Below, one piece after another: positions 489-62,680 of a stretch of DNA of 64,000 bases. The notes beneath the pieces are model-generated. The model did not search any database and had not been told where the DNA came from. It saw nothing but the letters and a program-made list of their open reading frames with translations. The DNA comes from a virus: positions 1 through 64,000 of IMG/VR virus record IMGVR_UViG_3300005323_000046. One strand, given 5' to 3'. A program made the position numbers and the translations under genes. Numbering within the stretch: position 1 is the first letter of the stretch; every line of letters begins with the position of its first letter.

Positions 489-845
489 ATGACGAGATAT
501 CGAATTAAAGACGCCGGAAACTCAGAAGAGTTTAATTCTTGGGATGAAGTCCTCCAAGAATTCAAGCAGAATTATGAGATGTGGGGTCTCAAAAGAGCGC
601 CTACCGAAGAAGAGATCGAGAACATGATGGATAGTATAGGAGATATCCAAATTACTAGATTGCTTATTTATACTATTAAGACCGATGCCGAGATGTACGA
701 TATCGAAGCCAAGGACGACGAGGAGGCAATCAAAATTGCAAGAGATGAAGTACAACTCTCCTCTGAGTTGATTGCCAATGGCGCTTGGCTCAGGGTCTTT
801 TTAGGAGATTATCCGATTTATTATGAGGGCAATGAGGTGACATGA
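489..845 (+). CDS. hypothetical acidic protein
   Basis: 118-aa ORF starting 3 nt after the upstream stop. Confidence 0.45.
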   Translation: MTRYRIKDAGNSEEFNSWDEVLQEFKQNYEMWGLKRAPTEEEIENMMDSIGDIQITRLLIYTIKTDAEMYDIEAKDDEEAIKIARDEVQLSSELIANGAWLRVFLGDYPIYYEGNEVT

Positions 846-2822: not shown

Positions 2823-2983
2823 GAATTTATCATCTCCTTTACAATATACTATACATTGATAGAATAAATAGTTTACGCTCTAGCCGACTTTGATCTTCCC
2901 GAAGGAGGGTTTGAAGAGGCGGACGAATCTTAAATACTAACATTTTTTTAAATTTACTTTTTTTATTATAAAACTTCCGTTAA

Positions 2984-2998
2984 CTATAAATACTATAG
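2984..2998 (+). promoter_or_regulatory. promoter-like motif CTATAAATACTATAG
   Basis: TATAAATA-type copy of the recurrent intergenic motif; 30 nt upstream of the 3028 start. Confidence 0.35.
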
Positions 2999-6840: not shown

Positions 6841-9243
6841 TCACCACGCCTCTCCCTCGGATTCTATTGTCATCTGTTCTCCGTTGGTTACAGATTCTCC
6901 TTCTTCATCGTAATTAAGCATTTGTTTGTTGTCACAATATATTCTCAGCCATTTTTTTCCTCTGTGAACCCCTTTAGGTTCTACTACGATTGAATAGATT
7001 CTTTTTAAATCGGGCTCAATTCTCTTTAATCTAGTAAGTAATTTAGATGCAGTTGTTGGTAATTTTTTATCTATATTGTTAGAATCAATTACCCATTGAC
7101 TGAAGTATTTACCAAATAAGTGGTCTGTAGAAATTCCCCAACCTACATTATTATTGAAATCTATATCCCCGTATTTTCTTACGAAATCGATAAAGAATTC
7201 GGCAACCGGTTCTGCTTCTAGAGAGGTTTGACACATTCCGGTTTGATTTAATCTGTAAGCGACTTCAAAATCTGGTATCATATTTAGAACCCGAGAGATA
7301 TATTTCCCTACAGATGCAAATGTGGTGAGCCGGAACTCAGACATTTCTCCTTTTCTAGGAATTCCGTCTTTCAAATATCCCTGGACTAGAGCAAGAATGG
7401 CACCGAATATCTCAGCCCTATAAGTTTCAAATTCCTCATTCAGAAATTCTTCTGATAAATAGCTTCCCTCTGGTCTGGAAATTTCAATGCTAACCGTTCT
7501 TTCTGCGAGATCTCCAGCTCCAGAATCGAATATTTGGGAGTTAATAGCTGTAATAATAAGTTTTGATCTTATATCAATAAGAACTTGATCATTGGTAGTA
7601 TATAGTTCTCTGGTAGGAATTACGCCGCCAGTAACCACATTACACAGAACATCTCCGGTTGCCCTGTCGATTCTGCTTATATTGTCAAGTACAGCAACCG
7701 CATTATGAGACAGTAACCCTATTAAATAATTTAAATCTTGGGGTTTATTAACTAGTAATTCTGAAGAATTACCTTCTACTGGGTCTAAAGTTCTTTTAAT
7801 TATGCGGCCCATAAAAGATTTGCCTGATCCACGAGACCCACAAAGAAGGAGTATTGGACTTTGAGCCCAGGGGAGTAGCGAATTTACTATCCATGTAATT
7901 AATAGAACTTTTTGGGAACTGTCTTTTACGTTTATAATATTAAATAATTTAAAAATGTTGTTTATATCTTTTTTACTTGGTACGTTTTGGACTCCCTGAT
8001 TAGTTTCTCGTATAAAAGTCATATCTGAGTATGGGTAAACTCCTAATCCACTAGGAGTAATTTTTACAAAATTATTATTTCCGAGATCATACCAAATAGC
8101 TTCTTTATCTCCTCCGACTCGTCTAAAAATCTTTGCTTTTTCTCCATATGCCATACATTTTCCGTCAAAATATCGGGCAACATAGGTTAATACACTATCT
8201 GATGGGAGTTTGTCTATGACTTTTTCTGCGGTAGTAGCCATCCAATATCTTGTGATTTTAGAGTTTATAGGGAGAAGGTTGATCCCAATATCTGAATAAT
8301 CTCTTAATTTAAAATAACTGTTATTGTTATGATCCCTTACAAGAGAAATATTATTTTCTACGATTTCTATTACGTTGTCAGTAATAGTTTTCTTTTGTTT
8401 CTTTATCCCTGGAAAATCCGCAAAAATCTCATCGTCAGTTTTATTGGTATAAGTTTTAATTAATGAGAACAAACCACCAGATGCATTACAGGAATGACAA
8501 AAATATCCATCTGCATATATACTCATTGATGGTTTTGTATCCTCGTGGAATGGACATAACACTTGAAGATATCTTCCACCGTCAAAAGCGATCTGAAGAT
8601 TATGATCTCTTGCCCATTGAAGAGCTGTTGGTATACCTTTTGCGGGTTTTATATCCGGCTTGATAATGGGCAATATAGATTCTAAATGTCTAAGAATATC
8701 GTCAATTTCTTCTGGCTCTTCCGAATTGATCCAATGGCGTATGAAATTTCTTTTTGTCCCCGCTCTTTCCTCGTCTTCTTCTTGGTTAATTTCTTCTTGA
8801 CTTAGATCGCGAGAAGGTAGAATAGCATATCCGTCTATTCCTTTTATATCTACTGCAACACCATTTATTCTTGTATGTGATTTTGGAATTACAGTACTTT
8901 TTATAAGGAAAGATATCCCGCCACTGGGGGTTCTCATTAAACATTTTTTAAAATCGGAAAGATACAAATCATATAAATTTGGGTCATCAATATCTACCAA
9001 GACTAAATTATCATATCCTGTGAGAACCGCCCAGTCAGCACGATCAAATTGAGCCAACCAGTGTAAAATTTGGTCTTCAGAAGGTTTATTTTCTTCGCTG
9101 CTTTTATATTCAGCCCATTTCACAAAAGGTCTTTTTTCATCTAGCTCGCCTGTTTTTTCGTTTACATGTCCTTGCGGGCGTATGGGGATAATACCCCAAC
9201 CTTTGTCAATATATTGTTGAATGAGAGAGACCATTGGAATCAA
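6841..9243 (-). CDS. primase-helicase (prim-pol N-domain, DnaG-type CHC2 zinc finger, SF3/D5-like helicase)
   Basis: CHC2 finger CPFHEDTKPSMSIYADGYFCHSCNASGG; Walker A LLLCGSRGSGKSF; probable true ATG at 9234 (MVSLIQQY). Confidence 0.8.
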   Translation of the reverse strand: MIPMVSLIQQYIDKGWGIIPIRPQGHVNEKTGELDEKRPFVKWAEYKSSEENKPSEDQILHWLAQFDRADWAVLTGYDNLVLVDIDDPNLYDLYLSDFKKCLMRTPSGGISFLIKSTVIPKSHTRINGVAVDIKGIDGYAILPSRDLSQEEINQEEDEERAGTKRNFIRHWINSEEPEEIDDILRHLESILPIIKPDIKPAKGIPTALQWARDHNLQIAFDGGRYLQVLCPFHEDTKPSMSIYADGYFCHSCNASGGLFSLIKTYTNKTDDEIFADFPGIKKQKKTITDNVIEIVENNISLVRDHNNNSYFKLRDYSDIGINLLPINSKITRYWMATTAEKVIDKLPSDSVLTYVARYFDGKCMAYGEKAKIFRRVGGDKEAIWYDLGNNNFVKITPSGLGVYPYSDMTFIRETNQGVQNVPSKKDINNIFKLFNIINVKDSSQKVLLITWIVNSLLPWAQSPILLLCGSRGSGKSFMGRIIKRTLDPVEGNSSELLVNKPQDLNYLIGLLSHNAVAVLDNISRIDRATGDVLCNVVTGGVIPTRELYTTNDQVLIDIRSKLIITAINSQIFDSGAGDLAERTVSIEISRPEGSYLSEEFLNEEFETYRAEIFGAILALVQGYLKDGIPRKGEMSEFRLTTFASVGKYISRVLNMIPDFEVAYRLNQTGMCQTSLEAEPVAEFFIDFVRKYGDIDFNNNVGWGISTDHLFGKYFSQWVIDSNNIDKKLPTTASKLLTRLKRIEPDLKRIYSIVVEPKGVHRGKKWLRIYCDNKQMLNYDEEGESVTNGEQMTIESEGEAW

Positions 9244-10379
9244 GACCTAACCTTTAAAGAGGTCAACTGTCCACTAATAAATTCGTGGGCTTGCGGCTCC
9301 GCAAAAAATCGGGCCACGATGGGCATATTGACTGATACCCGTGCGGCTATATTTCGAGCTGCGACTATATCTGCTTGGCCAGAGAAGCCACAACAGACAC
9401 AGCGAAATTCATCTCTAGTGGGGCGGTTAGATTGAGAGATGTGATGGCAGATTGGACACTCTTGCGAGGTGTAGGCGGGATTAATATAAACAACTGGTAC
9501 ACCAACAATAGCCGCCTTATAGTTAATGAACTGTTGAATCTGATTAAAACTCCAAGAATTATGTCTATGTCTCTGAGCCTTGGTTTTAACCGTTGTCCCC
9601 TCTCGGATACCTTTGAGATTTTCAAGGGCGATCAAAGAAGAGGTGTCTTTGGCTTTCATGACGAGTTTCTTAGAGATGCAATGATCGGTATCTTTTTTAA
9701 ACCTAGCCTCGCGACCAGAAAGCTTTTTGAGATGTTTTTTGGCACTATCGGTGCCACAACGCTGAAGATTGGATTTAAGTATATCGAGTTTAGATCTGTT
9801 TTTATCGATTTTTTCACTGGAGAATATTTCTCCCACAGAGTCTACGGCGATATTTTTAATTCCGAGATCGACTCCAAGGACATTTTTCGGAGTAATAAGA
9901 ATGGGATTGGGGGATTCAGTCACAATGCAGAGGTAGAATTTTTTGTTCTTAAAGATCAGGTCGATTTGACCTCTAATCTGGTTTATTTTGGACATATGAT
10001 AATTACAAATTTTAACGGGGATTTTAATCCTTCCATAAACGGTCAACAATGAAACTATATTGGGCTCCTTCCAAGATAAAATTCTCTGGTCATATACAAT
10101 TGCCCCATTAGAGTTGAAGATCGGTTTGATAGACTTATTTTGTTTATAGGTTTCGCATACTTTGGAAATGACTCTAATAGCCATTTGAGAGGATATATTA
10201 AACTTTTCTCTAATATCTCGGTAAACGAGGGGTTGTAGTGTAAATTTGTTGGATATATATGTATTAAAGGCAACTTCTGCCACGTAATTACAAGCGGCAT
10301 TGAATTGATACATAGTTTTATGGAGCGCTTTAGCTTGTTCCGAATCGGTAATAATTTTAATTTTAAGAGTTTGTATCAT
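9240..10379 (-). CDS. tnpB: IS200/IS605-family TnpB (OrfB) RNA-guided nuclease
   Basis: RuvC-I VDLGIKNIAV, RuvC-II LIALENLKG, zinc finger CPICHH..CVCCGF, RuvC-III ADIVAARNIA; all catalytic residues present. Confidence 0.85.
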   Translation of the reverse strand: MIQTLKIKIITDSEQAKALHKTMYQFNAACNYVAEVAFNTYISNKFTLQPLVYRDIREKFNISSQMAIRVISKVCETYKQNKSIKPIFNSNGAIVYDQRILSWKEPNIVSLLTVYGRIKIPVKICNYHMSKINQIRGQIDLIFKNKKFYLCIVTESPNPILITPKNVLGVDLGIKNIAVDSVGEIFSSEKIDKNRSKLDILKSNLQRCGTDSAKKHLKKLSGREARFKKDTDHCISKKLVMKAKDTSSLIALENLKGIREGTTVKTKAQRHRHNSWSFNQIQQFINYKAAIVGVPVVYINPAYTSQECPICHHISQSNRPTRDEFRCVCCGFSGQADIVAARNIAARVSVNMPIVARFFAEPQAHEFISGQLTSLKVRS

Positions 10380-10442: not shown

Positions 10443-10483
10443 GCTTGGAGTTTATAATCTTCTAAATTATAAATAATCCAAGC
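10443..10483. repeat. nested perfect palindrome GCTTGGA..TTTATAAT..ATTATAAA..TCCAAGC
   Basis: 7-bp outer and 8-bp inner inverted repeats, read directly; lies in the strand-switch intergenic region. Confidence 0.7.
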
Positions 10484-10485
10484 GC

Positions 10486-10504
10486 AAGATTAAAATAGTA
10501 TTAG
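10486..10504 (+). promoter_or_regulatory. promoter-like motif AAGATTAAAATAGTATTAG
   Basis: Copy of the recurrent motif; 16 nt upstream of the 10521 ATG. Confidence 0.45.
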
Positions 10505-12662: not shown

Positions 12663-12867
12663 TATTTAATTCATTTTTTTAAATTTTCTCTTTTTAAATC
12701 CCAACGATTTAAAAGTCTATGCAAGCTTTTCTTCACTGCAATGGACATTTAAAACCTTGTAATGAATTAATATGTTCTCTTTGTAGAAACAAAGAGAAAA
12801 ATTTTAGATCTTGGATAACTAGAGAAGAGTGTTATGAAATTAATAATCCCCGAAAGGTTTAAATATA

Positions 12868-13673: not shown

Positions 13674-13777
13674 TGAATAGATTTATTTATATTTAAATTT
13701 AGCGGCCAACAACTATTTATTCCATAGAGTCTTAAAGTAAAGATCATGAAACTAGAACATCTTTTGGAGGATAAAAA

Positions 13778-13957
13778 GTGAGCTACTGTCCCTCTTGCGG
13801 GCGTTTTTATGCTTCATCTAGGGGAGAATGTCCTAAATGTAAGGTCTCTTTAGAGAAGAATAAAGCGGACAAGAAGGTTGTAGACTCATATCCAATTCCT
13901 CAGATTTTTGCAGGGAGAATATTCTTTAGAAATGGTGGTTTGGTGTTTAAAATATGA
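13778..13957 (+). CDS. small zinc-ribbon protein (59 aa, GTG start; not in the ORF track)
   Basis: CPSCG..CPKC; GGAGG 8 nt upstream of the GTG; stop overlaps the next ATG (ATGA). Confidence 0.45.
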   Translation: MSYCPSCGRFYASSRGECPKCKVSLEKNKADKKVVDSYPIPQIFAGRIFFRNGGLVFKI

Positions 13958-15057: not shown

Positions 15058-15632
15058 CATGTATTGTAGGCTTAATAGAAAATGGTATTGTTTATATGGG
15101 CGGAGATAGTGCAGCATGTGATGATTCTTCTCTTAATATTATTAAAGGTCTTAAAGTATTCAAGAAAGACGAATTTTTATTTGGAATAAGTGGAAATCCG
15201 CGGATGAGTGATATCTTAAGATATAATTTCGAAATTCCTGTGATAATGGATAAAGACCAAGATATTTTAGAATATATGCATCAATATTTTATTCCCGAGT
15301 TGAAAGAATGTCTATCGGGAAACGGAGTTCTTATAAAACAAAACGAAGTAGTATCTAGTGATTCTTGGGTTATGATTGGTTATCAAGGGAGGTTATTTGT
15401 TTTGCAATCGCATTTTCATCTTTCAGAAAGTTTATTGAATTATGATGCCTTAGGAAGCGGAATGGACGCCGCTCTTGGATGTTTATACGGATTAGAAGAT
15501 TTAATGAATAGTGAATGGATCGTAAAGATGGGTCCCGAAGAAAAATTGATACTTGCTTTACAGGCATCAGAAAGATTTAATTGTAATGTTAGAAGACCTT
15601 TTACTATATTATCTGCGGCCCAACAAGATTAA
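15054..15632 (+). CDS. HslV/proteasome beta-like Ntn-hydrolase peptidase
   Basis: N-terminal M-T-CIVGL..GIVYMGGDS (Thr1 nucleophile after Met removal) and GSG motif DALGSGMDAAL, as in HslV TTIVSV..GDGQ / IAIGSGG. Confidence 0.7.
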   Translation: MTCIVGLIENGIVYMGGDSAACDDSSLNIIKGLKVFKKDEFLFGISGNPRMSDILRYNFEIPVIMDKDQDILEYMHQYFIPELKECLSGNGVLIKQNEVVSSDSWVMIGYQGRLFVLQSHFHLSESLLNYDALGSGMDAALGCLYGLEDLMNSEWIVKMGPEEKLILALQASERFNCNVRRPFTILSAAQQD

Positions 15633-15644
15633 ATAGTATTAAGG
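15631..15644 (+). promoter_or_regulatory. promoter-like motif (C)AAGATTAAATAGTATTAAGG
   Basis: Recurrent motif lying between the hslV-like stop and the next start. Confidence 0.45.
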
Positions 15645-15648
15645 CTAG

Positions 15649-17449: not shown

Positions 17450-17530
17450 ACATGTCAAAAGAAAAACGCAATTGATCTGATCAAGCAAATGCAAGCCGCT
17501 ATTATGGAAGGCGGTCCATATTGTGGATAA

Positions 17531-17547
17531 GTATAAATAGTAGTAAG
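17531..17547 (+). promoter_or_regulatory. promoter-like motif GTATAAATAGTAGTAAG
   Basis: The 20-mer including the preceding TAA is identical to the copy at 22926..22945. Confidence 0.5.
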
Positions 17548-19332: not shown

Positions 19333-19778
19333 AAATGGGTACCAATTTTTATACCTTGGAGGGTAAACATCTTGGAAAAAGGTCGGCAGCGGGACTCTTT
19401 TGTTGGACCTGTAAGAAGTCCCTAAGAATTGGAGGAGAATCCTTGGTACATACTTCCAGAGCCGATCTATTTGATGTCGAAGCCCATAAAAGGGAGTGGT
19501 ATAACAAATGCTCCATCTGCGGTGATGTCCCACAAAATGAAGGCTGGGATAATAGTTCTGTTGGAAGGGAGTTAGGATTCAATAAGGAACCTTACGGGGA
19601 AAAGACCGGAGTTTCTTCTTGTTCTTCTTTTACGTGGGCGGTTCGAGAATCAAGTTTAAATAGATTGAAGTATGTAAAAGATGAGTATGGGAGAAAATTT
19701 ACTATTGCGGAATTTAGGAAAATCCTTGAAGAGTGTCCTATACAATTTTTTGACTTAATAGGTACAGATTTTTGTTAG
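19290..19778 (+). CDS. Cys-rich hypothetical protein
   Basis: 162-aa ORF. Confidence 0.4.
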   Translation: MGIYRVTVGSGDRLKMGTNFYTLEGKHLGKRSAAGLFCWTCKKSLRIGGESLVHTSRADLFDVEAHKREWYNKCSICGDVPQNEGWDNSSVGRELGFNKEPYGEKTGVSSCSSFTWAVRESSLNRLKYVKDEYGRKFTIAEFRKILEECPIQFFDLIGTDFC

Positions 19779-20823: not shown

Positions 20824-21401
20824 TTCTAAGTGGTCAGGATATTAAAAAGTATGGTCTTCTTCTTAATGCTGAAGATTCTAACATGCAGGCGCAGGGATGG
20901 GACGTAAGACTTGATAAGGTTTACAGATGTGTAAATAAACATTGGGGCTTAAAGATTAAAGAAGAAGATTATGTGGAGCCGATTATGGCTCACGAGAGAT
21001 TCTTTAAACAAAATTGTATAGCTCAAGTCTGGGATGACAACGAAAATCTTCTTTATTATTGGATTCCACCTGAGTCTTCAGTTCTTTTTAAGTTGATGGA
21101 GACGGTGGATCTGAGACCAAGAGAAGAGTATTGCCAAGGTTATTTAGAGCAAGTTCATTATTTCAACGCCCTTGTTCTCCCCAAATCTTCCCTCTCGCGC
21201 AGAGGTATCAGTGTTCATTCTGCATGGTGGGACGCAGGGTATAAGGGATCTGGGGTTGTACTCGTAAGGACTTCTGGAGTCCCTCTACAAATTAAACCTG
21301 GAGATTCTTTTGGACAAATGATCTTTTTCGAAGGAACTCCTACAGATAGTGTCTATAATGGACAATATCAGGGAGAAGGATTAAATAGTATTAAGGTGTA
21401 G
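20820..21401 (+). CDS. dCTP deaminase/dUTPase superfamily protein
   Basis: WWDAGYKGSGVVLV and PGDSFGQMIFF resemble the dUTPase-fold motif; N-terminus MILSGQDIKKY. Confidence 0.55.
   Translation: MILSGQDIKKYGLLLNAEDSNMQAQGWDVRLDKVYRCVNKHWGLKIKEEDYVEPIMAHERFFKQNCIAQVWDDNENLLYYWIPPESSVLFKLMETVDLRPREEYCQGYLEQVHYFNALVLPKSSLSRRGISVHSAWWDAGYKGSGVVLVRTSGVPLQIKPGDSFGQMIFFEGTPTDSVYNGQYQGEGLNSIKV
21383..21396 (+). promoter_or_regulatory. promoter-like motif AAATAGTATTAAGG
   Basis: Recurrent motif 30 nt upstream of the 21427 ATG. Confidence 0.45.
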
Positions 21402-22567: not shown

Positions 22568-22928
22568 ACCTTACTTTATTTATACTCATGATGAAGATAG
22601 ACTAGAAAGAGAATTTGAGATTACAGATATAGATAATTTTTTAGAAAATCAGGAGAATCTTCCTGGATTGGTCCTTGAATTGCAAGAAAAGGTTGCTTTT
22701 CAGAAAGATCTTAAAACTGGAATTGAACTTGGTGTAATTAAGTGTATAAACAAGAATACAGAGCAGAATATTACCAAAGATGAAATAGCATATCTTGACA
22801 CGGCAATTTTCAACAATTTAAGGACAATTAGAATGATCAGAAAACGTCTAGGGTGGAGTCCCGAGCCAGAGATAAAGACAACAATTTTGAAAACGGATAT
22901 TTTGAAGAGCAAAAGGGGAATGAATTAA
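22554..22928 (+). CDS. hypothetical protein
   Basis: 124-aa ORF. Confidence 0.4.
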   Translation: MENNEPYFIYTHDEDRLEREFEITDIDNFLENQENLPGLVLELQEKVAFQKDLKTGIELGVIKCINKNTEQNITKDEIAYLDTAIFNNLRTIRMIRKRLGWSPEPEIKTTILKTDILKSKRGMN

Positions 22929-22945
22929 GTATAAATAGTAGTAAG
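22929..22945 (+). promoter_or_regulatory. promoter-like motif GTATAAATAGTAGTAAG
   Basis: Identical to the copy at 17531; GGAGGAG and the ligase ATG follow. Confidence 0.5.
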
Positions 22946-28890: not shown

Positions 28891-29471
28891 TTAATTTTGG
28901 AGGTTCTCAACTATCTTGTTCGGACTCTTCTCACTCCTCCTTGGTTTTATTTTTTAGAGGATGTCCTTATAATTGTTTTTTTTGTCAGAACAAAGAACTT
29001 CAATCTGGGGAGAATTTTGTAGACTCAAGAGAAATAACGAAACAAATATTAGATAATTATTTGATTTCTGAGGTAATTTTCTCTGGAGGAGAAGCCATGC
29101 TCCAGCCGAAAGCTGTGGAAGAAATTGCTAAGTTCTGTCACTTGATTGGGTTAAAAGTGGGATTGGAGACATCAGGATATAACTCCAAAAAATTAGATCT
29201 ACTAATGAGAGAGGACTTGATTGATGAAGTTTTTTTAGATATAAAAACTTATGGAGAAGAAAACTATCTTAAGCTTACAGGGAATAGAGATTCTTGGAAA
29301 AATGTGAAAAATGTTATCCGATTGTGTGCTTGGTATGACATCCCCATACTAGTTCGGACAACTATATTCCCCGATTACCCAGATAAAGAGAGTCTAGAAA
29401 AGATAGAAACCCTAGTAAAGAGAGATGGCCTAAATTGGAAGAAACAGGAGGGAAGGGATAATGGTAGTTAG
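28866..29471 (+). CDS. second NrdG-like radical SAM activase
   Basis: FFRGCPYNCFFCQNKEL and GGEAML; lies downstream of nrdD and the homing endonuclease. Confidence 0.6.
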   Translation: MEKRTIMLVNFGGSQLSCSDSSHSSLVLFFRGCPYNCFFCQNKELQSGENFVDSREITKQILDNYLISEVIFSGGEAMLQPKAVEEIAKFCHLIGLKVGLETSGYNSKKLDLLMREDLIDEVFLDIKTYGEENYLKLTGNRDSWKNVKNVIRLCAWYDIPILVRTTIFPDYPDKESLEKIETLVKRDGLNWKKQEGRDNGS

Positions 29472-29802
29472 TTCTTATTCCCAAAAACTTTATCTTCGCA
29501 TTCAAGAGAAAAACAAAAAAGGCGTAGTAACTGCTGATTCTTTGTTTGAGAATAAAACTTGGAAAGCAACAGAAAAGATTGCAATCGCACTTAAAGAACT
29601 TCAGGCGGAACATTTAATTAGTATTAAATCCGTATTAGATCACGGAAAGTTTGCGTCTGAATTAGTCACAGCAGAAAATTATGTGGAACATAGCGGGATA
29701 AAAGGAACACTGAGAAAAGAAGAGGACTTCGAGGGAGATTCTGAGGCGCCAAAGATCCCTCGTAAATATAAAAAGAGAACCGTGAGAAGAAGTGTAGTAT
29801 AG
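29461..29802 (+). CDS. hypothetical basic protein
   Basis: 113-aa ORF. Confidence 0.35.
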   Translation: MVVSSYSQKLYLRIQEKNKKGVVTADSLFENKTWKATEKIAIALKELQAEHLISIKSVLDHGKFASELVTAENYVEHSGIKGTLRKEEDFEGDSEAPKIPRKYKKRTVRRSVV

Positions 29803-33661: not shown

Positions 33662-34173
33662 AATATTTTTTAGATACCGAATTTATAGAAGCTGGTCCTG
33701 ATTATCCAATTCAGCTTTTAAGTATTGGAATCGTTGCAGAAGATGGGAGAGAATATTATGCCGTAGTTGACCCTATCGAACTCGAATTGTATCTTGCGGA
33801 TGATTGGGTTCGTGAAAATGTAATAAAATATCTAGATTTTAGCATGGGGAAGAGAAGAAAAACTATTGCTAAAGAGATTATAGAATTTGCTGGAGAACAA
33901 CCTAGCTGGATCGGGTATTACAACGATTATGATTGGGTTGTCCTATGCCAGCTTTTCGGACGCATGACAGATCTTCCAAAAGGGTGGCCCATGTATTGTT
34001 TAGATCTAAAACAAATGGCTACAGAATGTGTAGATCCAAGAATGCCTGATTTGCCAGACAAAATTGAACATCACGCTCTCTGGGATGCTCGCGAAATTAA
34101 ATATAGATATGATTGGTTGATGAAACGATATACTATTTCTTATATCCAAGAAAATGGGAGAGAGGGTTCCTGA
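33658..34173 (+). CDS. DEDDh 3'-5' exonuclease (DnaQ/oligoribonuclease-like)
   Basis: Exo I FLDTEF, Exo II YNDYDWVVL, Exo III HHALWDAREI. Confidence 0.65.
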   Translation: MKYFLDTEFIEAGPDYPIQLLSIGIVAEDGREYYAVVDPIELELYLADDWVRENVIKYLDFSMGKRRKTIAKEIIEFAGEQPSWIGYYNDYDWVVLCQLFGRMTDLPKGWPMYCLDLKQMATECVDPRMPDLPDKIEHHALWDAREIKYRYDWLMKRYTISYIQENGREGS

Positions 34174-34298
34174 TGTGTTTAATTAATTTTCCAGCTAAAT
34201 GCCCCAAATGTGGGCATAGTAATATTAAATTGGGGATCGAAGTAGATTATTCACGAGCGACATGGATTTGTAAAAAATGTCATCATGAGTTTGACTGA
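34113..34298 (+). CDS. small zinc-ribbon protein in an overlapping frame
   Basis: CPKCGH..CKKCHH; overlaps the 3' end of the exonuclease and the 5' end of the helicase. Confidence 0.3.
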   Translation: MVDETIYYFLYPRKWERGFLMCLINFPAKCPKCGHSNIKLGIEVDYSRATWICKKCHHEFD

Positions 34299-36024
34299 GG
34301 AGAAAATCTTGATCGAAATGAAATTTGGTGTGCCACAGGGGTTTCGAGAGAGAGTACTAGCTGTCCTTACAGACAGTTCTACAACTCTTAGAAATAAATT
34401 ATCCGTTCTTGGATTCAATTATAATTCGATGGGCCGTTTTTGGGCTCGTGGAGGCGATTTTCAACCTCATGTGGTTAAGACCCTTCAATCTCTTGGGATA
34501 CAACCTTCAAAGGCTGTATTAGATGAATACAACTCTAAAACAGGGTTTAGACCTATAAGAATTTTTGAGGACAATTTTAAATATGAAATGTTGCTTGATT
34601 ATCAGAAAGAGGCTTTGGAATTCTGTAAGAAATCTGGTTCAGGAATAGTGGCGCTTGATATCGGTTTAGGAAAAACGATATGCGCCGTCGCATATGCTGA
34701 GTTTCTAGGACAAAAAAATTTGGTTGTCTGTCCCGCTTCACTTAGAGGTCAGTGGTCTAGCGAGTTAATCAAATTTAATAATAAAGAGCCGAAGAGCATA
34801 ATAATAGATGGTTCTAGGGAGAAACGTAAAAAACAGTGGGATTTAGCGCAGAATTGTCAATATTGCATGGTATCATATGATCTTTTAAGGCAACCAGATG
34901 ATCTTTTAAGGGCAAAATCATATTTAAATGGCGGGCTTCTCATTTGTGACGAAATAATGAGGACGAAAAATTCCAGCTCTCAGCGGACTAAAGCAATAAA
35001 AGAGTTGAGAAAGTCGGCTTCATATGCAATCGGTCTCAGTGGAACGCCCGTCGAAAATTCATTAAGTGAGTTTTATACTATTCTAAATATAGTAAGTCCA
35101 AATTTTATCCCTTCCTATGAGAAATTTGCGGAATTATTCCTGATCCGAGAGCTAAAACAGGGGCATAACGGGAAATCGTACTGGCTTTTTAGAGGAGAGA
35201 AAAATGTAGACGAGTTTCGCGACCTAATAAAGCCTCTCGTCATCCGCAGAGAGAAAAGAGAATGTTTGAATTTACCCCCAGCGTCCACAGTTGTAAGAAC
35301 AGTAGAAATGTCCAAGGAACAAAAAAGAATAGAGAAAAAACTCTTGGAACTCGCGAAGGACGATCCGGACAATATTTTGAAATATTTTACCTATGCGAGA
35401 GAAAACATAATAAGTCCCAGTTTGCTCCCTTTTTCCCGCGACTCTAATAAAAAACAAACAGGCTTAGATCTCTGGGCTAAGATATTAGGATCTGAGTTCG
35501 GGGATGAGGGGTTGGAATTTGTGCCTTCTCAGGCACAAGAATTGATAGAGGGGAAAATCAAACCAGAAGAGGTAGAGCTAACGCCGAGACTTCTCGAAAT
35601 AAAGGATTTAATTGAGGAAACTAAAGGTGAAAAAATTATAATTTATTCAACATTTGTAAAAGCACTAGAATTGGTAAAAAGGTGTATAATAAACGAGCCC
35701 TGCGCGATGATAGCGGGGGATTGCGATGTGGAAAAGGAAAAGGATAAATTTTTTGGAAGTACAAGAATTCTGTTGGGGAGTCCAAAAATAGAAGAAGGGC
35801 TAAATCTGCAAGATTCGTGTCACATACTTATAATTTTAAACACAAATTTTAATCCGATGAAGGTAGAGCAGCTTCGCGGACGCATAGAAAGATCTGGACA
35901 AAAACACCCAATGATTTTTTACGAACTAAAATGTTCAAGCGTAATCGAGTCAAGAATAGACCAAATTTTAAAAAAGAAAGAGAAATTATCCGAAAGGGTT
36001 CTAGCGAGGGAAGTAATGAAATAG
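34285..36024 (+). CDS. SNF2-family helicase/ATPase
   Basis: Motif I LDIGLGKT, motif II CDEIMR, motif III LSGTPVEN, motif VI QLRGRIERSGQ. Confidence 0.85.
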   Translation: MSLTEEKILIEMKFGVPQGFRERVLAVLTDSSTTLRNKLSVLGFNYNSMGRFWARGGDFQPHVVKTLQSLGIQPSKAVLDEYNSKTGFRPIRIFEDNFKYEMLLDYQKEALEFCKKSGSGIVALDIGLGKTICAVAYAEFLGQKNLVVCPASLRGQWSSELIKFNNKEPKSIIIDGSREKRKKQWDLAQNCQYCMVSYDLLRQPDDLLRAKSYLNGGLLICDEIMRTKNSSSQRTKAIKELRKSASYAIGLSGTPVENSLSEFYTILNIVSPNFIPSYEKFAELFLIRELKQGHNGKSYWLFRGEKNVDEFRDLIKPLVIRREKRECLNLPPASTVVRTVEMSKEQKRIEKKLLELAKDDPDNILKYFTYARENIISPSLLPFSRDSNKKQTGLDLWAKILGSEFGDEGLEFVPSQAQELIEGKIKPEEVELTPRLLEIKDLIEETKGEKIIIYSTFVKALELVKRCIINEPCAMIAGDCDVEKEKDKFFGSTRILLGSPKIEEGLNLQDSCHILIILNTNFNPMKVEQLRGRIERSGQKHPMIFYELKCSSVIESRIDQILKKKEKLSERVLAREVMK

Positions 36025-36032
36025 AAAGATTT

Positions 36033-36047
36033 ATATAGTATTAAGGT
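36033..36047 (+). promoter_or_regulatory. promoter-like motif TATATAGTATTAAGG
   Basis: Recurrent motif 37 nt upstream of the 36085 ATG. Confidence 0.45.
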
Positions 36048-39629: not shown

Positions 39630-39837
39630 AATTTCTTGTATAAATATGATATGGGGTATAACATTTTTGGGACTTCTTGCTTTGGTTGGAGGAACTTCTG
39701 CGCCTAAAAACAGCCCAAAATATAAATCTTACACTAAACTGCTTGGTTTTTGTATTTTATCTTTGATCGCTTTAACTTTCCTTTCCGTCACATTAAATAT
39801 TTTTAATACTGTCATTTCTCTAACGGTGGTTCCATGA
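39619..39837 (+). CDS. small two-transmembrane membrane protein
   Basis: Hydrophobic; overlaps the upstream stop. Confidence 0.4.
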   Translation: MSIEISCINMIWGITFLGLLALVGGTSAPKNSPKYKSYTKLLGFCILSLIALTFLSVTLNIFNTVISLTVVP

Positions 39838-40577
39838 AACTTTCCAATCTTTATGTAATAGATTCGGGTAGTTTTAATATTGCATGGCTCATAGCAATGA
39901 ACAACGTTTTAAAGTCTGATGTAGATATCTCGTTTGGCTCCTCGAAAGAGCCTAAATGTGCTAAAGATTCCTGTCAAGTAATTTCCCTGACGGGAACCGC
40001 AATTGACCAAATATCTAATGGACTTCTTCATCCAGATTTTTCATTTAAATCTATTGATCAATATAAAAAGGAGTTTGATGTAGATTTTCTCGGAGAATAT
40101 AATACTTGGCCCGAAGAGAAGAAGTTCACTTACTTGTATATAGAGAGAATAGTCCAATATAGAAGTCAAAATGGAACTGTGGATCAATTGGAGGTCTTAA
40201 GAGACCAATTAGAGAACCAGATAAATAACAAAATCGGTTCCAATAGATCTCAGGCTATTACTTGGGAGCCAGAAGTTGACGTAGTAAATAACGCGAGTCC
40301 TTGCATGCAGCGCATATGGTCCCGTTGGATTGGAGAAGAAAATGGAGTTAATTACGTAGATTTACATCTCGATTGGCGTTCTAGAGACCTATTTAATGCG
40401 TGGCAACCGAACTTAATTGCTGTTACCTGGATGTTGAATAAATATGTATATGGCCCAAATAATTGTAGGATATATAGACTTATAGATAAGAACGATTCGC
40501 TACACATCTATAAAGGGGATATTGAGTTGGCGAAGGAAATTGTTGAAAAGAGATTGCCATTTGTGATGAAGTATTAG
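39834..40577 (+). CDS. thymidylate synthase (ThyA)-family enzyme, divergent
   Basis: Aligns to the ThyA core: ITWEPEVD~WNPxDL, ASPCMQRIW~PCHxxFQF (catalytic Cys kept, His changed to Met), LHLDWRSRDLF~QLYQRSCDVF, QPNLIAV~PFNIASY (the Asn that reads dUMP is kept). Confidence 0.55.
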   Translation: MKLSNLYVIDSGSFNIAWLIAMNNVLKSDVDISFGSSKEPKCAKDSCQVISLTGTAIDQISNGLLHPDFSFKSIDQYKKEFDVDFLGEYNTWPEEKKFTYLYIERIVQYRSQNGTVDQLEVLRDQLENQINNKIGSNRSQAITWEPEVDVVNNASPCMQRIWSRWIGEENGVNYVDLHLDWRSRDLFNAWQPNLIAVTWMLNKYVYGPNNCRIYRLIDKNDSLHIYKGDIELAKEIVEKRLPFVMKY

Positions 40578-40588
40578 CCGTTAAGATT

Positions 40589-40602
40589 AAATAGTAATAA
40601 GG
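40589..40602 (+). promoter_or_regulatory. promoter-like motif (TTAAGATT)AAATAGTAATAAGG
   Basis: Recurrent motif 16 nt upstream of the 40618 ATG. Confidence 0.45.
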
Positions 40603-44253: not shown

Positions 44254-44350
44254 TTTCGTAGAATACAATAGTTGTCTATCCACCTTACTAGACATATATT
44301 TAACGTACTATTTTAATAGTTTAAATAGATTTCGGACAGGGAGAGGGTTT

Positions 44351-44364
44351 AAATAGTAGTAAAG
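44351..44364 (+). promoter_or_regulatory. promoter-like motif AAATAGTAGTAAAG
   Basis: Recurrent motif; here it overlaps the 5' end of the HicB-like open frame. Confidence 0.35.
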
Positions 44365-44628
44365 ATCATTAAGCCTTGGAAGGACCCAGATAGACTTTAC
44401 TATGCCTTTGATACTGAGTCATTAGGAAACTATGGCGCAGGGAAAACTAAAGAAAAAGCGGAAGAAAATTTAATAGAGAGACAAAAACTAAAAAGTGAAA
44501 TTCTCTATGATTTTAATAAATTAGAAGTTTTTGTGCCAGAAACGAGAGATTACATGGCAGGCTTAATTTCGAGACGTTGGGTAGAAATAAAAAAGATCAG
44601 AAAGGAGATTAGAAAGCATGGGGCTTAA
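44353..44628 (+). CDS. HicB/UPF0150-like small protein without a canonical start codon
   Basis: 91-codon open frame (..KPWKDPDRLYYAFDTESLGNYGAGKTKEKAEENLIERQKL..) with no ATG/GTG/TTG until codon 61; its stop overlaps the next gene's ATG. Confidence 0.4.
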   Translation: MVVKIIKPWKDPDRLYYAFDTESLGNYGAGKTKEKAEENLIERQKLKSEILYDFNKLEVFVPETRDYMAGLISRRWVEIKKIRKEIRKHGA

Positions 44629-46389: not shown

Positions 46390-46444
46390 TAGATCAAGAT
46401 GAGGACCAACAACTATAAATACCGACGTGACAATATTTTTCTGT

Positions 46445-49336: not shown

Positions 49337-49356
49337 TCCACATTGACCGTAATCTA

Positions 49357-49370
49357 TTTATACTATTAAG
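49357..49370 (+). promoter_or_regulatory. promoter-like motif TTTATACTATTAAG
   Basis: Variant of the recurrent motif at the start of the 340-nt ORF-free leader. Confidence 0.35.
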
Positions 49371-49680
49371 TTAATAATTTAAGTTCGTCCCAAGGGAAAA
49401 CCATTCTTAGCTCCATGTCGTCTCCTTCCCAACGCCGCCCTCTTCCGGCGTGGTCCGTTATGTCTCCTCGCGGGCCTATAATCTACCCCTTGGGATTCTC
49501 TCCCTATTTTATTAATTTCTTTTAGTAGGCTTACGCCATCGACAACTATTTAAGCCCACGATCCAGTATTAATAATGTTTTAATAAAGGTGATTTTATTC
49601 CGATCAAAGCCCTTGGCAGAAAAGCCTATCACAGAATTCCTCATTTACTCGGATCTCACGCCGAAAAGGGAGACTTCTTT

Positions 49681-51390: not shown

Positions 51391-51633
51391 CCGAAATCCT
51401 TAAATACTTTTAGTACCATTACATAGGTTTCAAACTAGCTTATGTGGAGGTAACTAAAATGAAATTATCTCGGGACCTTAATTCTGTTCAAAATCGAATT
51501 ATCGCCAAGACTACGAAGAACAAAGAAGATATCTGACAGATAACATTGTAACCATGCGAGCAATGTTCAAGAAGTATAAAAAGATAAACGGTAGATAACC
51601 TACCAAAAACTATTTATTCTAGCGCCGCATTAT

Positions 51634-60532: not shown

Positions 60533-60913
60533 ATGGAGAAAGACGAAATGACCCATAAATTTCTTTATAAGCAAGCAATTGTAGTTAGGGAAGATCTTAA
60601 AATGTCACCAGGAAAACTGGCGGTCCAAGTAGCTCATGCAAGCGTGGGGGCAATATACGGTTCAAATCTTCTTGCCCCCAATCTAGAGAACTGGTTTGCC
60701 GAAGGATTTAGAAAAATCGTCCTTAAAGTTAAATCTGAAAAAGATATTCTAAATATCAAAGAAAAGTGTAATAAAGAAGGAATACCTTATTTTCTGGTTT
60801 ACGATTTTGGACTTACAGAGCTGGAACCTAATGCTTTAACCTGTATAGGAATTGGACCAGATCTTAACGAGAACATAGATAAAATTACAGGGAGATTGGG
60901 GTTGTATAAATGA
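60533..60913 (+). CDS. pth2: peptidyl-tRNA hydrolase, PTH2 family
   Basis: Matches PTH2 across its length: VVREDLKMSPGKLAVQVAHASV .. VLKV .. FLVYDFGLTELEPNALTCIGIGP. Confidence 0.8.
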   Translation: MEKDEMTHKFLYKQAIVVREDLKMSPGKLAVQVAHASVGAIYGSNLLAPNLENWFAEGFRKIVLKVKSEKDILNIKEKCNKEGIPYFLVYDFGLTELEPNALTCIGIGPDLNENIDKITGRLGLYK

Positions 60914-62613: not shown

Positions 62614-62665
62614 AGACAATCATTTTTAAACCGTCTATAAATAAAATTATAGCCTCCGAAAAGTT

Positions 62666-62680
62666 TATATAGTATTAAAC
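62666..62680 (+). promoter_or_regulatory. promoter-like motif TATATAGTATTAAAC
   Basis: Recurrent motif 5 nt upstream of the 62686 ATG. Confidence 0.4.

What the first reader, a model, noticed from the sequence alone, without database searches (positions are those of the whole stretch)
15622..15646. Recurrent AT-rich intergenic motif (AAGATTAAATAGTATTAAGG / TAAGTATAAATAGTAGTAAG) is a candidate phage promoter
At least twelve copies occur, all in intergenic gaps upstream of plus-strand genes and 5-40 nt before the start. They lie at 2984, 10486, 15631, 17531, 21383, 22929, 36033, 40589, 44351, 48910, 49357 and 62666. Two are an identical 20-mer (17528 and 22926), and three share the extension AAGATTAAATAGTA. 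The TATAAATA core resembles T4-type late promoters. Variable spacing to the start codon argues for a promoter rather than an RBS.
Basis: partly seen in the sequence, partly recalled or inferred. Interest (0 to 1): 0.6.

Follow-up and report, generated by a model that had tools for sequence, protein, structure and literature searches.

The report
Archaeal-type viral promoter repeat, not T4-late
The recurring AT-rich motif is real and is almost certainly a promoter, but it looks like an archaeal BRE/TATA-box promoter with a virus-specific extension, in a large uncultivated tailed virus that probably infects a methanogen-like archaeon, not like a T4-type late promoter.

Summary
The motif is real. 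Ten strong copies lie in the window, all on the + strand (about 0.3 expected by chance). Eight sit at gene junctions in a genome that is 93% coding. Orthologous copies in related contigs are 85% identical, against 28% and 43% for the flanks.

The anatomy is C-R-n-a-A-R-G, then an 8-bp box WWTAAATA, then GTAKTAAR. The upstream half matches the archaeal BRE (A at -34, C/G at -38/-37). The box matches the methanogen TATA box. A T-purine step lies 22-23 nt after the box. At that same point either a Shine-Dalgarno sequence begins or an ATG sits (leaderless geometry). A tRNA gene starts there behind a second promoter class.

The virus carries an archaeal Pth2, a methanogen-type thymidylate synthase, and a UDG-DnaE fusion shared with Methanobacterium virus PhiF1. 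No RNA polymerase or sigma gene was found in the window.

The sites precede DNA-metabolism genes. None lies in 16 kb of packaging/structural genes. The T4-late reading is therefore not supported.

The extension right after the box is conserved across orthologues but limited to a narrow clade. This resembles the SIRV GTC element and the halovirus HF2 intergenic repeats. I read it as a class determinant. No transcription start data exist and the host is inferred.

The parts
15621..15643 (+). Class-1 promoter. BRE-like CAACAAG, box ATTAAATA (15628-15635), extension GTATTAAG. The ATG of gene 15658 lies 30 nt after the box start (leaderless geometry).
   Evidence: Orthologues in L041, L044 and L046 keep a box-to-ATG distance of 29-30 nt despite unrelated spacers and compensating indels.
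17525..17547 (+). Class-1 promoter. Box TATAAATA (17532-17539) plus GTAGTAAG. T-G at box+29/30, SD AGGAGA from box+32, ATG at 17578.
   Evidence: Conserved in L041, L045 and L046 while the upstream flank cannot be aligned.
19648..19670 (+). Class-1-like match inside ORF 19335-19778 (box TTTAAATA, extension GATTGAAG). It lacks the T-purine step at +29/30. Function doubtful.
21373..21395 (+). Class-1 promoter within the last 28 nt of the dCTP-deaminase-like gene. Box ATTAAATA (21380-21387) plus GTATTAAG. It drives the SPFH gene at 21427.
   Evidence: Orthologues in L041 and L042.
22923..22945 (+). Class-1 promoter. Box TATAAATA (22930-22937) plus GTAGTAAG. T-G at +29/30 followed at once by GGAGGAGA. 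It drives the ATP-dependent DNA ligase gene at 22979.
   Evidence: Orthologues in L041 and L042 keep the SD start at box+31 while the SD-to-ATG distance varies.
29606..29628 (+). Class-1-like match inside ORF 29461-29802 (TTTAATTA+GTATTAAA). No T-purine step at +29/30. Degraded in the L042 orthologue. Probably a coding coincidence or a weak internal promoter.
36023..36045 (+). Class-1 promoter. Box TTTATATA (36030-36037) plus GTATTAAG. It drives the HNH endonuclease gene at 36085.
40579..40601 (+). Class-1 promoter. Box ATTAAATA (40586-40593) plus GTAATAAG. The ATG at 40618 (HD-domain protein) lies 32 nt after the box start.
   Evidence: The orthologue in L020 has the ATG at 30 nt and a conserved N-terminus.
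44341..44363 (+). Class-1 promoter. Box TTTAAATA (44348-44355) plus GTAGTAAA. It is followed by about 270 nt without an ORF of 25 aa or more, before the radical-SAM gene at 44618.
62657..62679 (+). Class-1 promoter. Box TTTATATA (62664-62671) plus GTATTAAA. The ATG at 62695 lies 31 nt after the box start, with no SD.
   Evidence: In L116 (70% DnaE identity) the BRE, the box and the 30-nt spacing are kept but the extension is lost.
10483..10504 (+). Class-1 variant with a 1-nt insertion (GCAAGATTAAAATAGTATTAG). The ATG at 10521 lies 31 nt after TTAAAATA, with no SD.
46406..46423 (+). Class-2 promoter (CCAACAAC-TATAAATA-CC), 30 nt upstream of the 5' end of tRNA-Leu (46444).
51603..51620 (+). Class-2 promoter (CCAAAAAC-TATTTATT-CT) upstream of gene 51661. 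The SD starts at box+35.
13706..13723 (+). Class-2 promoter (CCAACAAC-TATTTATT-CC) upstream of gene 13778.
2977..2994 (+). Class-2-like promoter (CCGTTAAC-TATAAATA-CT). T-G at +30/31, then GGAGA, then ATG at 3031.
2862..2878 (-). Class-2 promoter on the minus strand (GCGTAAAC-TATTTATT-C) upstream of minus-strand gene 2271-2822. The SD starts at box+31.
49347..49370 (+). Hybrid box (TATTTATA+CTATTAAG). No ORF follows. A GC-rich foldable segment starts about 30 nt downstream.

Best explanation
The motif is a class of core promoters read by an archaeal host RNA polymerase.

Proposed mechanism (inferred from established archaeal transcription):
- Host TBP binds the 8-bp box (A/T)(T/A)TA(A/T)ATA.
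- Host TFB binds the purine-rich element just upstream (C-R-n-a-A-R-G). This sets the direction of transcription.
- Transcription starts 22-23 nt after the 3' edge of the box, at a T|purine step.
- The transcripts either start at or within 2 nt of the ATG (genes 15658, 40618, 62695, 10521), or carry a 14-19 nt leader that begins with the Shine-Dalgarno sequence (genes 17578, 21427, 22979).

The seven conserved bases right after the box (GTA-K-TAA) mark this class. They set it apart from a second, more widely conserved class (CCRnCAAC-TATTTATW-C) that drives the tRNA gene and other genes.

The extension most likely tunes or times expression of the DNA-metabolism block. It could do so by strengthening the TFB contact downstream of the TATA box, or by binding a virus-encoded regulator.

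Shown: the motif, its strand and position bias, its conservation, and the spacing regularities. Inferred: the transcription start sites, the archaeal host, and the role of the extension.
For: Motif and conservation:
- 8 hits against 0.29 expected, all on the + strand. There are 10 strong sites, 8 of them at gene junctions, in a window that is 7% non-coding.
- Minus-strand copies in L042, L046, L051 and L052 precede minus-strand genes.
- Across orthologous sites the motif is 85% identical, against 28% for the upstream flank and 43% for the spacer (alignments).

Match to the archaeal promoter:
- A logo of 28 distinct sites shows C at -7 (15/28), purine at -6 (28/28) and A at -3 (25/28) relative to the box.
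- With the box at -31 to -24, these are positions -38, -37 and -34. Those are the BRE positions reported for M. jannaschii, which also has the TATA pattern TWTATATA, described as confined to methanogens (PMC2699501).
- The same paper gives 23 +/- 2 nt from the TATA 3' edge to the start site, with T at -1 and A/G at +1.
- Here T at box+29 (20/28) and purine at box+30 (22/28) form the only signal downstream of the motif. All 8 junction sites in the window have it. The 2 intragenic sites do not.

Spacing regularities:
- ATGs without a usable SD lie at box+29 to +33. SD starts lie at box+30 to +35.
- The box-to-ATG distance of the 15658 orthologues stays at 29-30 nt through unrelated spacers.
- tRNA genes start 30 nt after class-2 boxes, both in the window and in L049.

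Host domain:
- Pth2 passes the NCBIfam archaeal cut-offs.
- The methanogen-type thymidylate synthase matches only Methanobacteriales viruses among 50,697 phage records.
- The UDG-DnaE fusion is best matched by Methanobacterium virus PhiF1, which also shares NrdD, an HslV-like gene and ThyA.
- The closest cellular Pth2 proteins are archaeal.
- There is no excess of sigma-70 promoters or hairpin terminators.
- No RNAP or sigma gene is in the window.
- Archaeal viruses are reported to lack their own RNAP and to use BRE/TATA promoters (PMC5569661).
Against: - There are no transcription start data. All start sites are inferred from sequence regularities.
- The host is not identified. Two scans of GTDB genomes found no relative. 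One relative sits in a bin labelled Proteobacteria.
- Several genes are of bacterial type: DnaE, a DnaG-type zinc finger on the primase, and a RelA/SpoT-like HD domain.
- Some 'leaderless' starts have SD-like purines upstream (AGGTGG before 15658, AAGGAG before 40618). These would fit a start site inside the motif.
- Only about 90 kb of a genome of at least 145 kb was inspected, so a virus-encoded RNAP or TFB is not excluded.
- Oligo-T terminators are only about 2-fold enriched after genes.
- The sites from relatives are not independent of each other.
Confidence: 0.68

Rival explanations
1. It is a T4-type late promoter in a bacteriophage. The TATAAATA-like box would sit at -10, read by the host core RNAP with a gp55-like phage sigma, and start about 6-7 nt downstream.
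For: - The box resembles TATAAATA. Two sites are exact (17532, 22930).
- No -35 element is present.
- SD-like purines sit inside or just after the motif at 15647 and 40600. They would lie in a short leader if transcription started near TAAG.
Against: - 8 of 10 boxes differ from TATAAATA (ATTAAATA, TTTATATA, TTTAAATA).
- Both flanks are strongly conserved, which T4 late promoters do not show.
- The sites precede DNA-metabolism genes, not structural genes. None lies in 16 kb of the packaging/structural region.
- No sigma or gp55-like gene and no T4-like genes are in the window.
- This reading does not explain the T-purine step at box+29/30, the pile-up of ATG and SD starts at box+29 to +35, or the BRE-like positions.
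Confidence: 0.04
2. It is a promoter for a virus-encoded RNA polymerase, single-subunit T7/N4-like or a divergent multisubunit enzyme. The contiguous 23-bp motif would be recognised as a whole and transcription would start near its 3' end (TAA|GG).
For: - The conserved block is long and contiguous (-7 to +15). This is the size of phage RNAP promoters.
- It is confined to a narrow clade, as expected if it co-evolves with a dedicated polymerase or factor.
- Less than two thirds of the genome was seen.
Against: - No RNAP gene lies in the 64-kb window or in about 26 kb of adjoining sequence.
- The upstream half matches the archaeal BRE/TATA position by position.
- The box+30 regularities are shared with the class-2 promoters and the tRNA genes, which lack the extension.
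- Archaeal viruses are reported to lack RNAPs.
Confidence: 0.08
3. The BRE and box are an ordinary host-type promoter. GTAKTAAR is the operator of a virus or host repressor or activator that overlaps the TATA box (the AATA-G-TATT half is a 9-bp palindrome). The motif would then be mainly a regulatory switch, not a stronger core promoter.
For: - In the T variant, positions box+4 to +12 (AATAGTATT) are palindromic around the invariant G. This can be read directly from the sequence.
- Archaeal repressors commonly bind at or just downstream of the TATA box. Virus regulators with RHH or Zn-finger folds are known.
- HF2 class-specific promoter repeats were read in the same way.
Against: - The G variant (GTAGTAA) breaks the palindrome, yet it is just as conserved.
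- No candidate regulator was identified. Only a weak, sub-threshold TFIIB-type zinc-ribbon hit was found for a 41-aa ORF.
- This is a refinement of the best explanation rather than an exclusive alternative.
Confidence: 0.15
4. The repeat is mainly a recombination or mobile-element boundary, or an RNA-level signal such as a processing site or translational operator, and not a promoter.
For: - The genome is rich in homing endonucleases, inteins and TnpB.
- In L042 a NUMOD3 endonuclease gene is inserted just upstream of the ligase copy of the motif.
- The motif would be present in read-through transcripts.
Against: - There are no flanking target duplications or inverted repeats.
- Gene order around the sites is the same in the window, L041 and L042.
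- The distance to the start codon varies from 30 to 55 nt and more, so it is not an RBS or operator.
- The motif has no stem-loop.
- The BRE/TATA/Inr layout and the co-orientation with genes fit a promoter.
Confidence: 0.03

Closest known systems
Methanogen core promoters (BRE + TATA box TWTATATA + Inr), as mapped in Methanocaldococcus jannaschii (PMC2699501)
   Same: - 8-bp AT box of the TTTAWATA type.
- A at -34, and C/G at -38/-37 in the BRE.
- T(-1)/purine(+1) about 23 nt after the 3' edge of the box.
- tRNA genes are driven by the strongest BRE/TATA versions.
   Different: [quoted passage not shown] Here seven positions are nearly invariant.
- The leaders are shorter (0-19 nt) than is typical for M. 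jannaschii.
- G at -32 replaces the usual T or A.
SIRV1/SIRV2 promoters with a GTC motif downstream of the TATA box (Kessler et al. 2004, as summarised in PMC5569661)
   Same: - A virus-specific conserved element right after the TATA box in most promoters of an archaeal virus that uses host TBP/TFB/RNAP.
- It also begins with G-T.
   Different: - Three bases against seven or eight.
- A crenarchaeal rod-shaped virus against a tailed virus with methanogen-type promoter features.
- No sequence relationship.
Halovirus HF2 intergenic repeats, class I and class II (PMC8707807)
   Same: - Recurrent intergenic repeats in an archaeal tailed virus that were shown to be BRE/TATA promoters.
- Two sequence classes exist. 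One of them lies in the early-middle DNA-replication region.
- Position and orientation are conserved among related viruses.
- Class-specific extra motifs are thought to bind virus factors.
   Different: - The HF2 repeats are 58 and 29 bp, GC-containing and of the haloarchaeal type.
- Their extra motifs lie around the start site and upstream, not abutting the TATA box.
- Their activity was shown experimentally. Here it was not.
Phage T4 late promoters (TATAAATA at -10, gp55/gp33/gp45)
   Same: AT-rich 8-mer resembling TATAAATA, with no -35 element.
   Different: - The flanks are conserved.
- Most boxes are not TATAAATA.
- The genes served are not late genes.
- No gp55 was found.
- The spacing regularities point to a start about 30 nt from the box start, not about 14.
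[quoted passage not shown]
   Same: The position is the same. The first five bases G-T-A-K-T fit R-T-D-K-K, including the T/G alternation.
   Different: - The last two positions are A-A, not K-K.
- No sequence-specific BREd has been described for archaeal TFB, to my knowledge.
- The resemblance is a lead only.

Membership tests
T4-type late promoter | Near-invariant TATAAATA octamer at -10, with no other conserved sequence | tested here: not met
   Only 2 of 10 boxes are TATAAATA. Positions -7 to -1 and +8 to +15 around the box are strongly conserved.
T4-type late promoter | Precedes late (virion structure/assembly) genes | tested here: not met
   The sites precede DNA ligase, SPFH, HNH, HD-domain and unknown genes in the replication block. 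No strong site lies in 16 kb around the large terminase of the same virus.
T4-type late promoter | gp55-like late sigma (with gp33 and a sliding clamp) encoded by the phage | tested here: inconclusive
   No sigma-like gene appeared in Pfam scans of all window ORFs. The only Sigma70_r4 hits are HTH repeats of homing endonucleases. The rest of the genome (at least 145 kb) was not seen.
Archaeal BRE/TATA core promoter (methanogen type) | 8-bp TATA box of the TWTATATA/TTTAWATA type | tested here: met
   The box is (A/T)(T/A)TA(A/T)ATA in 28 of 28 distinct sites. T at +2 and +6, and A at +3 and +7, are invariant.
Archaeal BRE/TATA core promoter (methanogen type) | BRE directly upstream, with conserved A at -34 and C/G preference at -38/-37 | tested here: met
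   A at box-3 in 25/28 sites, purine at box-6 in 28/28, and C at box-7 in 15/28 with no T. Class 2 shows CC(A/G)nCAAC.
Archaeal BRE/TATA core promoter (methanogen type) | Start site 23 +/- 2 nt after the 3' edge of the box, at T(-1)/purine(+1) | tested here: inconclusive
   There are no 5'-end data. The sequence proxies agree:
- T at box+29 in 20/28 sites and purine at box+30 in 22/28.
- All 8 junction sites in the window have it.
- ATGs lie at box+29 to +33 and SD starts at +30 to +35.
- tRNA 5' ends lie at +30.
Archaeal BRE/TATA core promoter (methanogen type) | Host is an archaeon whose TBP/TFB/RNAP read the promoter | not testable with these tools
   Only indirect evidence is available:
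- Archaeal Pth2 above the NCBIfam cut-offs.
- A methanogen-type ThyA shared only with Methanobacteriales viruses.
- A UDG-DnaE fusion and three more genes shared with Methanobacterium virus PhiF1.
The scans of GTDB genomes gave no host.
Virus-specific extended archaeal promoter class (SIRV GTC, HF2 intergenic repeats) | An extra conserved element next to the canonical BRE/TATA, recurring in many promoters of one virus | tested here: met
   GTAKTAA follows the box in all 8 junction sites and in the 10486 variant. G at +8 is invariant in 28/28 sites.
Virus-specific extended archaeal promoter class (SIRV GTC, HF2 intergenic repeats) | Conserved in position and orientation in related viruses | tested here: met
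   Five orthologous sites are kept in L041, L042, L044, L046 and L020, with 85% motif identity against 28-43% for the flanks. The extension is lost at 70% DnaE identity or below.
Virus-specific extended archaeal promoter class (SIRV GTC, HF2 intergenic repeats) | Demonstrated promoter activity and a mapped start site | not testable with these tools
   This needs a reporter assay, in vitro transcription or 5'-end mapping.
Single-subunit phage RNAP promoter (T7/N4-like) | A cognate RNA polymerase gene in the same genome | tested here: inconclusive
   None was found in the window or in about 26 kb of adjoining sequence. More than 50 kb of the genome was not inspected.

The most novel reading that the evidence does not exclude
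GTAKTAA may be a true downstream TFB-recognition element (an archaeal BREd). It would be read either by the host TFB or by a virus-encoded TFB-like or zinc-ribbon factor.

It would let the virus build promoters that outcompete host promoters, or that are switched as a temporal class.

This would be the first sequence-specific BREd in Archaea, found in a new lineage of large (at least 145 kb) tailed viruses of methanogen-like hosts.
Probability: 0.12. Interest if true: 0.7.

Novelty: new member of a known kind. Interest (0 to 1): 0.42.

Why it matters
Very little is known about how viruses of methanogens and other non-extremophilic archaea control their genes.

- **Transcription map from sequence alone.** The motif gives two promoter classes, predicted start sites, and a split into leaderless and SD-led genes for an uncultivated virus of at least 145 kb. 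Its large terminase has only about 20 relatives in 5.8 billion proteins.
- **Evidence on the host.** The promoter anatomy is itself evidence that the host is an archaeon. Protein homology alone did not settle this.
- **A testable element.** The conserved block abutting the TATA box can be tested for class-specific or temporal control. It sits where TFB touches DNA.
- **Practical use.** These 23-bp elements are candidate strong, compact promoters for methanogen genetics.

Tried and rejected
- **Close relatives in GenBank phages.** Megablast of 10 kb found nothing. tblastn of 2,162 aa of concatenated unknown proteins matched only the DnaQ-like exonuclease. TerL had no tblastn match.
- **Exact 16-mer in IMG/VR.** It gave 33 single hits. 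Only L020 is a relative. Five hits are a coding coincidence inside unrelated DnaE genes.
- **GTDB genomes.** The DnaE protein query found nothing. The 18-mer AAGTATAAATAGTAGTAA gave 53 loci, none of them related. No host or provirus emerged.
- **Taxon labels of bins.** Searches with Pth2, DnaE and TerL returned only one label for a relative, 'Proteobacteria bacterium', which is probably mis-binned.
- **Upstream of the window start (L050, L051).** Only unknown ORFs and an HTH-repeat protein were found.
- **Sigma-70 promoters and hairpin terminators.** Counts were at shuffle level.
- **Oligo-T terminators.** Only about 2-fold enriched. Not used as evidence.
- **Rfam.** Only the tRNA matched.
- **The 41-aa zinc-ribbon ORF as a TFB mimic.** The Pfam hit is below the cut-off and the PDB hits are generic.
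- **HslV-like gene as a host marker.** Rejected, because it is widespread in bacterial phages.
- **Reverse-strand reading of class 1 as a class-2 promoter.** Rejected, because the reverse strand lacks the A at -34 and the genes run the other way.
Full report
**The window**

The window has 36% G+C and is 93% coding (my own gene model). From 10.4 kb onward nearly all genes are on the + strand. It is the DNA-metabolism block of an uncultivated tailed virus. It encodes:
- a DnaE-type polymerase with an N-terminal family-4 UDG
- NrdD and its activase
- a prim-pol/DnaG-finger primase
- an SNF2 helicase
- an ATP-dependent DNA ligase
- a dCTP-deaminase-like protein
- two RNA ligases, one of them carrying an intein
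- Pth2
- radical-SAM proteins
- several homing endonucleases
- TnpB
- one tRNA-Leu

No RNA polymerase or sigma gene is present, including among the 63 ORFs shorter than 90 aa. The large terminase lies about 7 kb past the 3' end of the window. Relatives sit on contigs of 129 and 145 kb.

**Check of the observation**

The motif at 15622-15646 is as described. TAWATAGTAKTAAG with up to 1 mismatch occurs 8 times, always on the + strand, against 0.29 expected.

A PWM scan separates ten sites (score at least 21.9) from everything else (below 12). None is on the minus strand.

Eight of the ten lie at gene junctions, although only 7% of the window is non-coding.

- Eight are members.
- 10486 is a variant with one extra base.
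- 2984 belongs to another promoter class.
- 48910 is a weak partial match.
- 49357 is a hybrid.

The identical 20-mer at 17528 and 22926 is confirmed. AAGATTAAATAGTA is exact only twice.

**Conservation**

Relatives at 72-84% protein identity keep the motif at the orthologous junctions (L041/L047, L042, L044, L045, L046, L020). Around it the intergenic DNA has diverged.

Over five orthologous sites, pairwise identity is:
- 85% in the motif (-7 to +14 relative to the box)
- 28% in the 13 nt upstream
- 43% in the 14-nt spacer downstream (alignments)

Copies on the minus strand of relatives precede minus-strand genes. The element is therefore selected, directional, and tied to the gene downstream.

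**Anatomy**

I aligned 28 distinct sites from the window and its relatives. The consensus is C(-7) R(-6) n a A(-3) R G(-1), then the 8-bp box (A/T)(T/A)TA(A/T)ATA, then G T A K T A A R.

The only further signal downstream is T at box+29 (20/28) followed by a purine at box+30 (22/28).

In the window, all eight junction sites have this T-purine step at +29/30 (one at +30/31). The two intragenic sites do not.

**Spacing to the gene**

- Where no usable Shine-Dalgarno sequence precedes the gene, the ATG lies 29-33 nt after the box start. The values are 30 for 15658, 32 for 40618, 31 for 62695, 31 for 10521, 33 for 13194 on the minus strand, and 32 for a gene in L047.
- Where a strong SD is present, it begins 30-35 nt after the box start (genes 3031, 12901, 17578, 21427, 22979, 2271 on the minus strand, and 51661).
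- The four orthologues of gene 15658 keep 29-30 nt between box and ATG through four unrelated spacer sequences. One pair does so through a compensating 4-nt insertion and deletion.
- In the ligase promoter the SD start stays at box+31 while the SD-to-ATG distance varies.

**A second promoter class**

A second class, CC(A/G)nCAAC-TATTTAT(T/A)-C (or TATAAATA), has the same geometry.
- It lies 30 nt upstream of the tRNA-Leu 5' end (box at 46414).
- It also lies 30 nt upstream of a tRNA in the distant relative L049.
- It precedes genes 13778, 51661, 3031 and 2271 on the minus strand.

It is kept in relatives down to 43% DnaE identity (L048, L049, L050, L051). Those relatives lack class 1 at PWM 12 or above in the stretches examined.

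**Comparison with known promoter architecture**

The reference is the mapped promoters of M. jannaschii (PMC2699501):
- The TATA box is TWTATATA, a pattern said to be confined to methanogens.
- The BRE covers the nine positions upstream. Position -34 is highly conserved, and A, C, C, G are preferred at -40 to -37.
- T is preferred at -1 and A/G at +1.
- The start lies 23 +/- 2 nt after the 3' edge of the box in 94% of promoters.

Placing the box here at -31 to -24 makes box-3 equal to -34 (A), box-7 and box-6 equal to -38 and -37 (C, purine), and box+30 or +31 equal to +1.

Every regularity found here falls on the corresponding position. Class 2, with CC(A/G) at -39 to -37, is even closer to the optimum and serves the tRNA genes, as in M. 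jannaschii. I did not fit this correspondence in advance. The logo and the spacings were computed before I read the paper.

**Host domain**

Evidence for an archaeal host:
- Pth2 passes both NCBIfam archaeal equivalog cut-offs. Its closest cellular relatives (about 53% identity) are archaeal.
- Gene 39834 is a divergent methanogen-type thymidylate synthase. Its only matches among 50,697 phage records are viruses of Methanobacteriales.
- The best match of the UDG-DnaE fusion is Methanobacterium virus PhiF1. PhiF1 has the same fusion and also shares NrdD, an HslV-like gene and the thymidylate synthase.
- Sigma-70-like promoters and hairpin terminators are at chance level.

Evidence against, or missing:
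- The host itself is not identified.
- Several genes are bacterial in type.
- One relative is binned as 'Proteobacteria'.

I rate an archaeal host as likely, not proven. The promoter anatomy is the strongest single argument.

**Mechanism**

The best-supported reading is as follows.
- Host TBP binds the box, and host TFB on the BRE fixes the direction.
- RNAP starts at the T|purine step 22-23 nt past the box.
- This gives either leaderless mRNAs or mRNAs whose short leader begins with the SD.
- SD-like purines upstream of some 'leaderless' ATGs would serve translation from read-through transcripts. Most class-1 sites are not preceded by a terminator.

The steps from binding to the start site are inferred from established archaeal transcription (PMC5569661). 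They are not shown for this virus.

**The extension GTAKTAA**

This is what makes the class special. M. jannaschii promoters show no base preference right after the box, although TFB touches DNA there.

In this virus the positions are conserved across orthologues. GTAKTA is kept in all five groups. The extension is lost at 70% DnaE identity, although the BRE, the box and the 30-nt spacing remain (L116).

Class 1 serves the replication and accessory block. It is absent from 16 kb around the terminase of the same virus (L117).

Two precedents exist:
- The GTC motif downstream of the TATA box in SIRV1/2.
- The class-specific intergenic promoter repeats of halovirus HF2.

I therefore read the extension as a class determinant. 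It is either a better TFB contact or the site of a regulator. Its first five bases fit the eukaryotic BREd consensus RTDKKKK. This is a lead, not a test.

**Rivals**

- **T4-type late promoter.** It fails on box sequence, flank conservation, the genes served and gene content.
- **Promoter for a virus-encoded RNAP.** It fits the length of the motif and its narrow distribution. It does not explain the BRE match or the box+30 regularities shared with class 2 and the tRNA genes. No polymerase gene was seen, but the genome is incomplete.
- **Recombination boundary or RNA-level signal.** It does not fit the variable distance to the start codon, the absence of repeats or stems, or the conserved gene order.

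**Verdict**

'Promoter' is right. 'T4-type late' is wrong.

It is a new member of a known kind, the virus-specific archaeal core promoter classes, in a lineage of large tailed viruses not described before. Interest is moderate. It would rise if the extension proved to be a true downstream TFB-recognition element.

Noticed in passing
window 13706-13723, 46406-46423, 49539-49556, 51603-51620, 2977-2994 (+), 2862-2878 (-); also L048 986 and 3494; L049 2838, 7937 and 2808(-); L050 4972(-); L051 3671(-): A second recurrent promoter class, CC(A/G)nCAAC-TATTTAT(T/A)-C, has a near-optimal archaeal BRE. It drives tRNA genes and several protein genes. It is conserved in much more distant relatives than the reported motif.
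   Followed up: partly
window 49385-49500 (+), in the gene-free gap 49337-49680: A GC-rich island folds with a long closing helix (MFE -40.2 kcal/mol, z = -3.8 against shuffles). It starts about 30 nt after the hybrid box at 49355 and is followed by T-runs. It has no Rfam match even at E<=1. It is a candidate virus-encoded structured RNA.
   Followed up: partly
window 44364-44617: The class-1 promoter at 44348 is followed by about 254 nt with no ORF of 25 aa or more, before the radical-SAM/SPASM gene at 44618. This is either a long 5' leader or an unannotated small RNA. A second TATA-like box (GTTTAAATAGAT) lies 30 nt upstream of the promoter.
   Followed up: partly
window 34173-34298 (+): A 41-aa CxxC...CxxC ORF gives a sub-threshold hit to the TFIIB/TFB zinc ribbon (PF08271, 27.4 bits against a cut-off of 29). 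PDB matches are generic zinc fingers. It might modulate transcription, but the evidence is weak.
   Followed up: partly
window 55824-59846 (+); L043 25648-30442: The replicative polymerase is a DnaE-type Pol III alpha fused to a family-4 uracil-DNA glycosylase. Methanobacterium virus PhiF1 has the same architecture. In some relatives the gene carries an intein with a LAGLIDADG domain (1,768-1,778 aa forms).
   Followed up: partly
window 60548-60913 and 39834-40577: The virus encodes an archaeal-type peptidyl-tRNA hydrolase Pth2 that scores above the NCBIfam equivalog cut-offs. It also encodes a divergent methanogen-type thymidylate synthase. Among GenBank phage records, that synthase matches only Methanobacteriales viruses.
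   Followed up: yes
L003 6419-8122; L047 18183-19856(-); L048 14823-16589(-); L117: The large terminase lies about 7 kb beyond the 3' end of the window. It has no tblastn match in 50,697 phage records and only 20 homologues (E<=1e-5) among 5.8 billion proteins. The neighbouring large ORFs have no family hits. This is a very isolated lineage.
   Followed up: partly
window 12663-12700; L117 about 4590, 14050 and 15875; L048 about 13720-13790: A third recurrent intergenic element, TTTTTATTTAATTCAT(A/T)TTTTTTAAAAT(A), combines T-runs with TATA-like boxes. It often lies between divergent or convergent genes. It may be a terminator plus promoter. I did not analyse it further.
   Followed up: no
window 665-680 and 49355-49370: The 16-mer TATTTATACTATTAAG occurs twice. 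One copy is inside ORF 489-845 (coding LIYTIK). The other is the hybrid promoter-like box. This is probably coincidence.
   Followed up: no
L016, L021, L023, L025, L035 (IMG/VR contigs): The exact 16-mer TTAAATAGTATTAAGG occurs inside the DnaE genes of five contigs that are otherwise unrelated to the window (about 25% protein identity). It is a coding coincidence in another virus group, not a promoter.
   Followed up: partly
window 9240-10379 (-); L003 4421-5548; L117 8066-9193 and 14314-15489(-): The same virus carries several TnpB (IS200/IS605 OrfB, Cas12f-like) copies. It also has many HNH, LAGLIDADG and AP2 homing endonucleases and inteins. The load of mobile elements is unusually heavy.
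   Followed up: no
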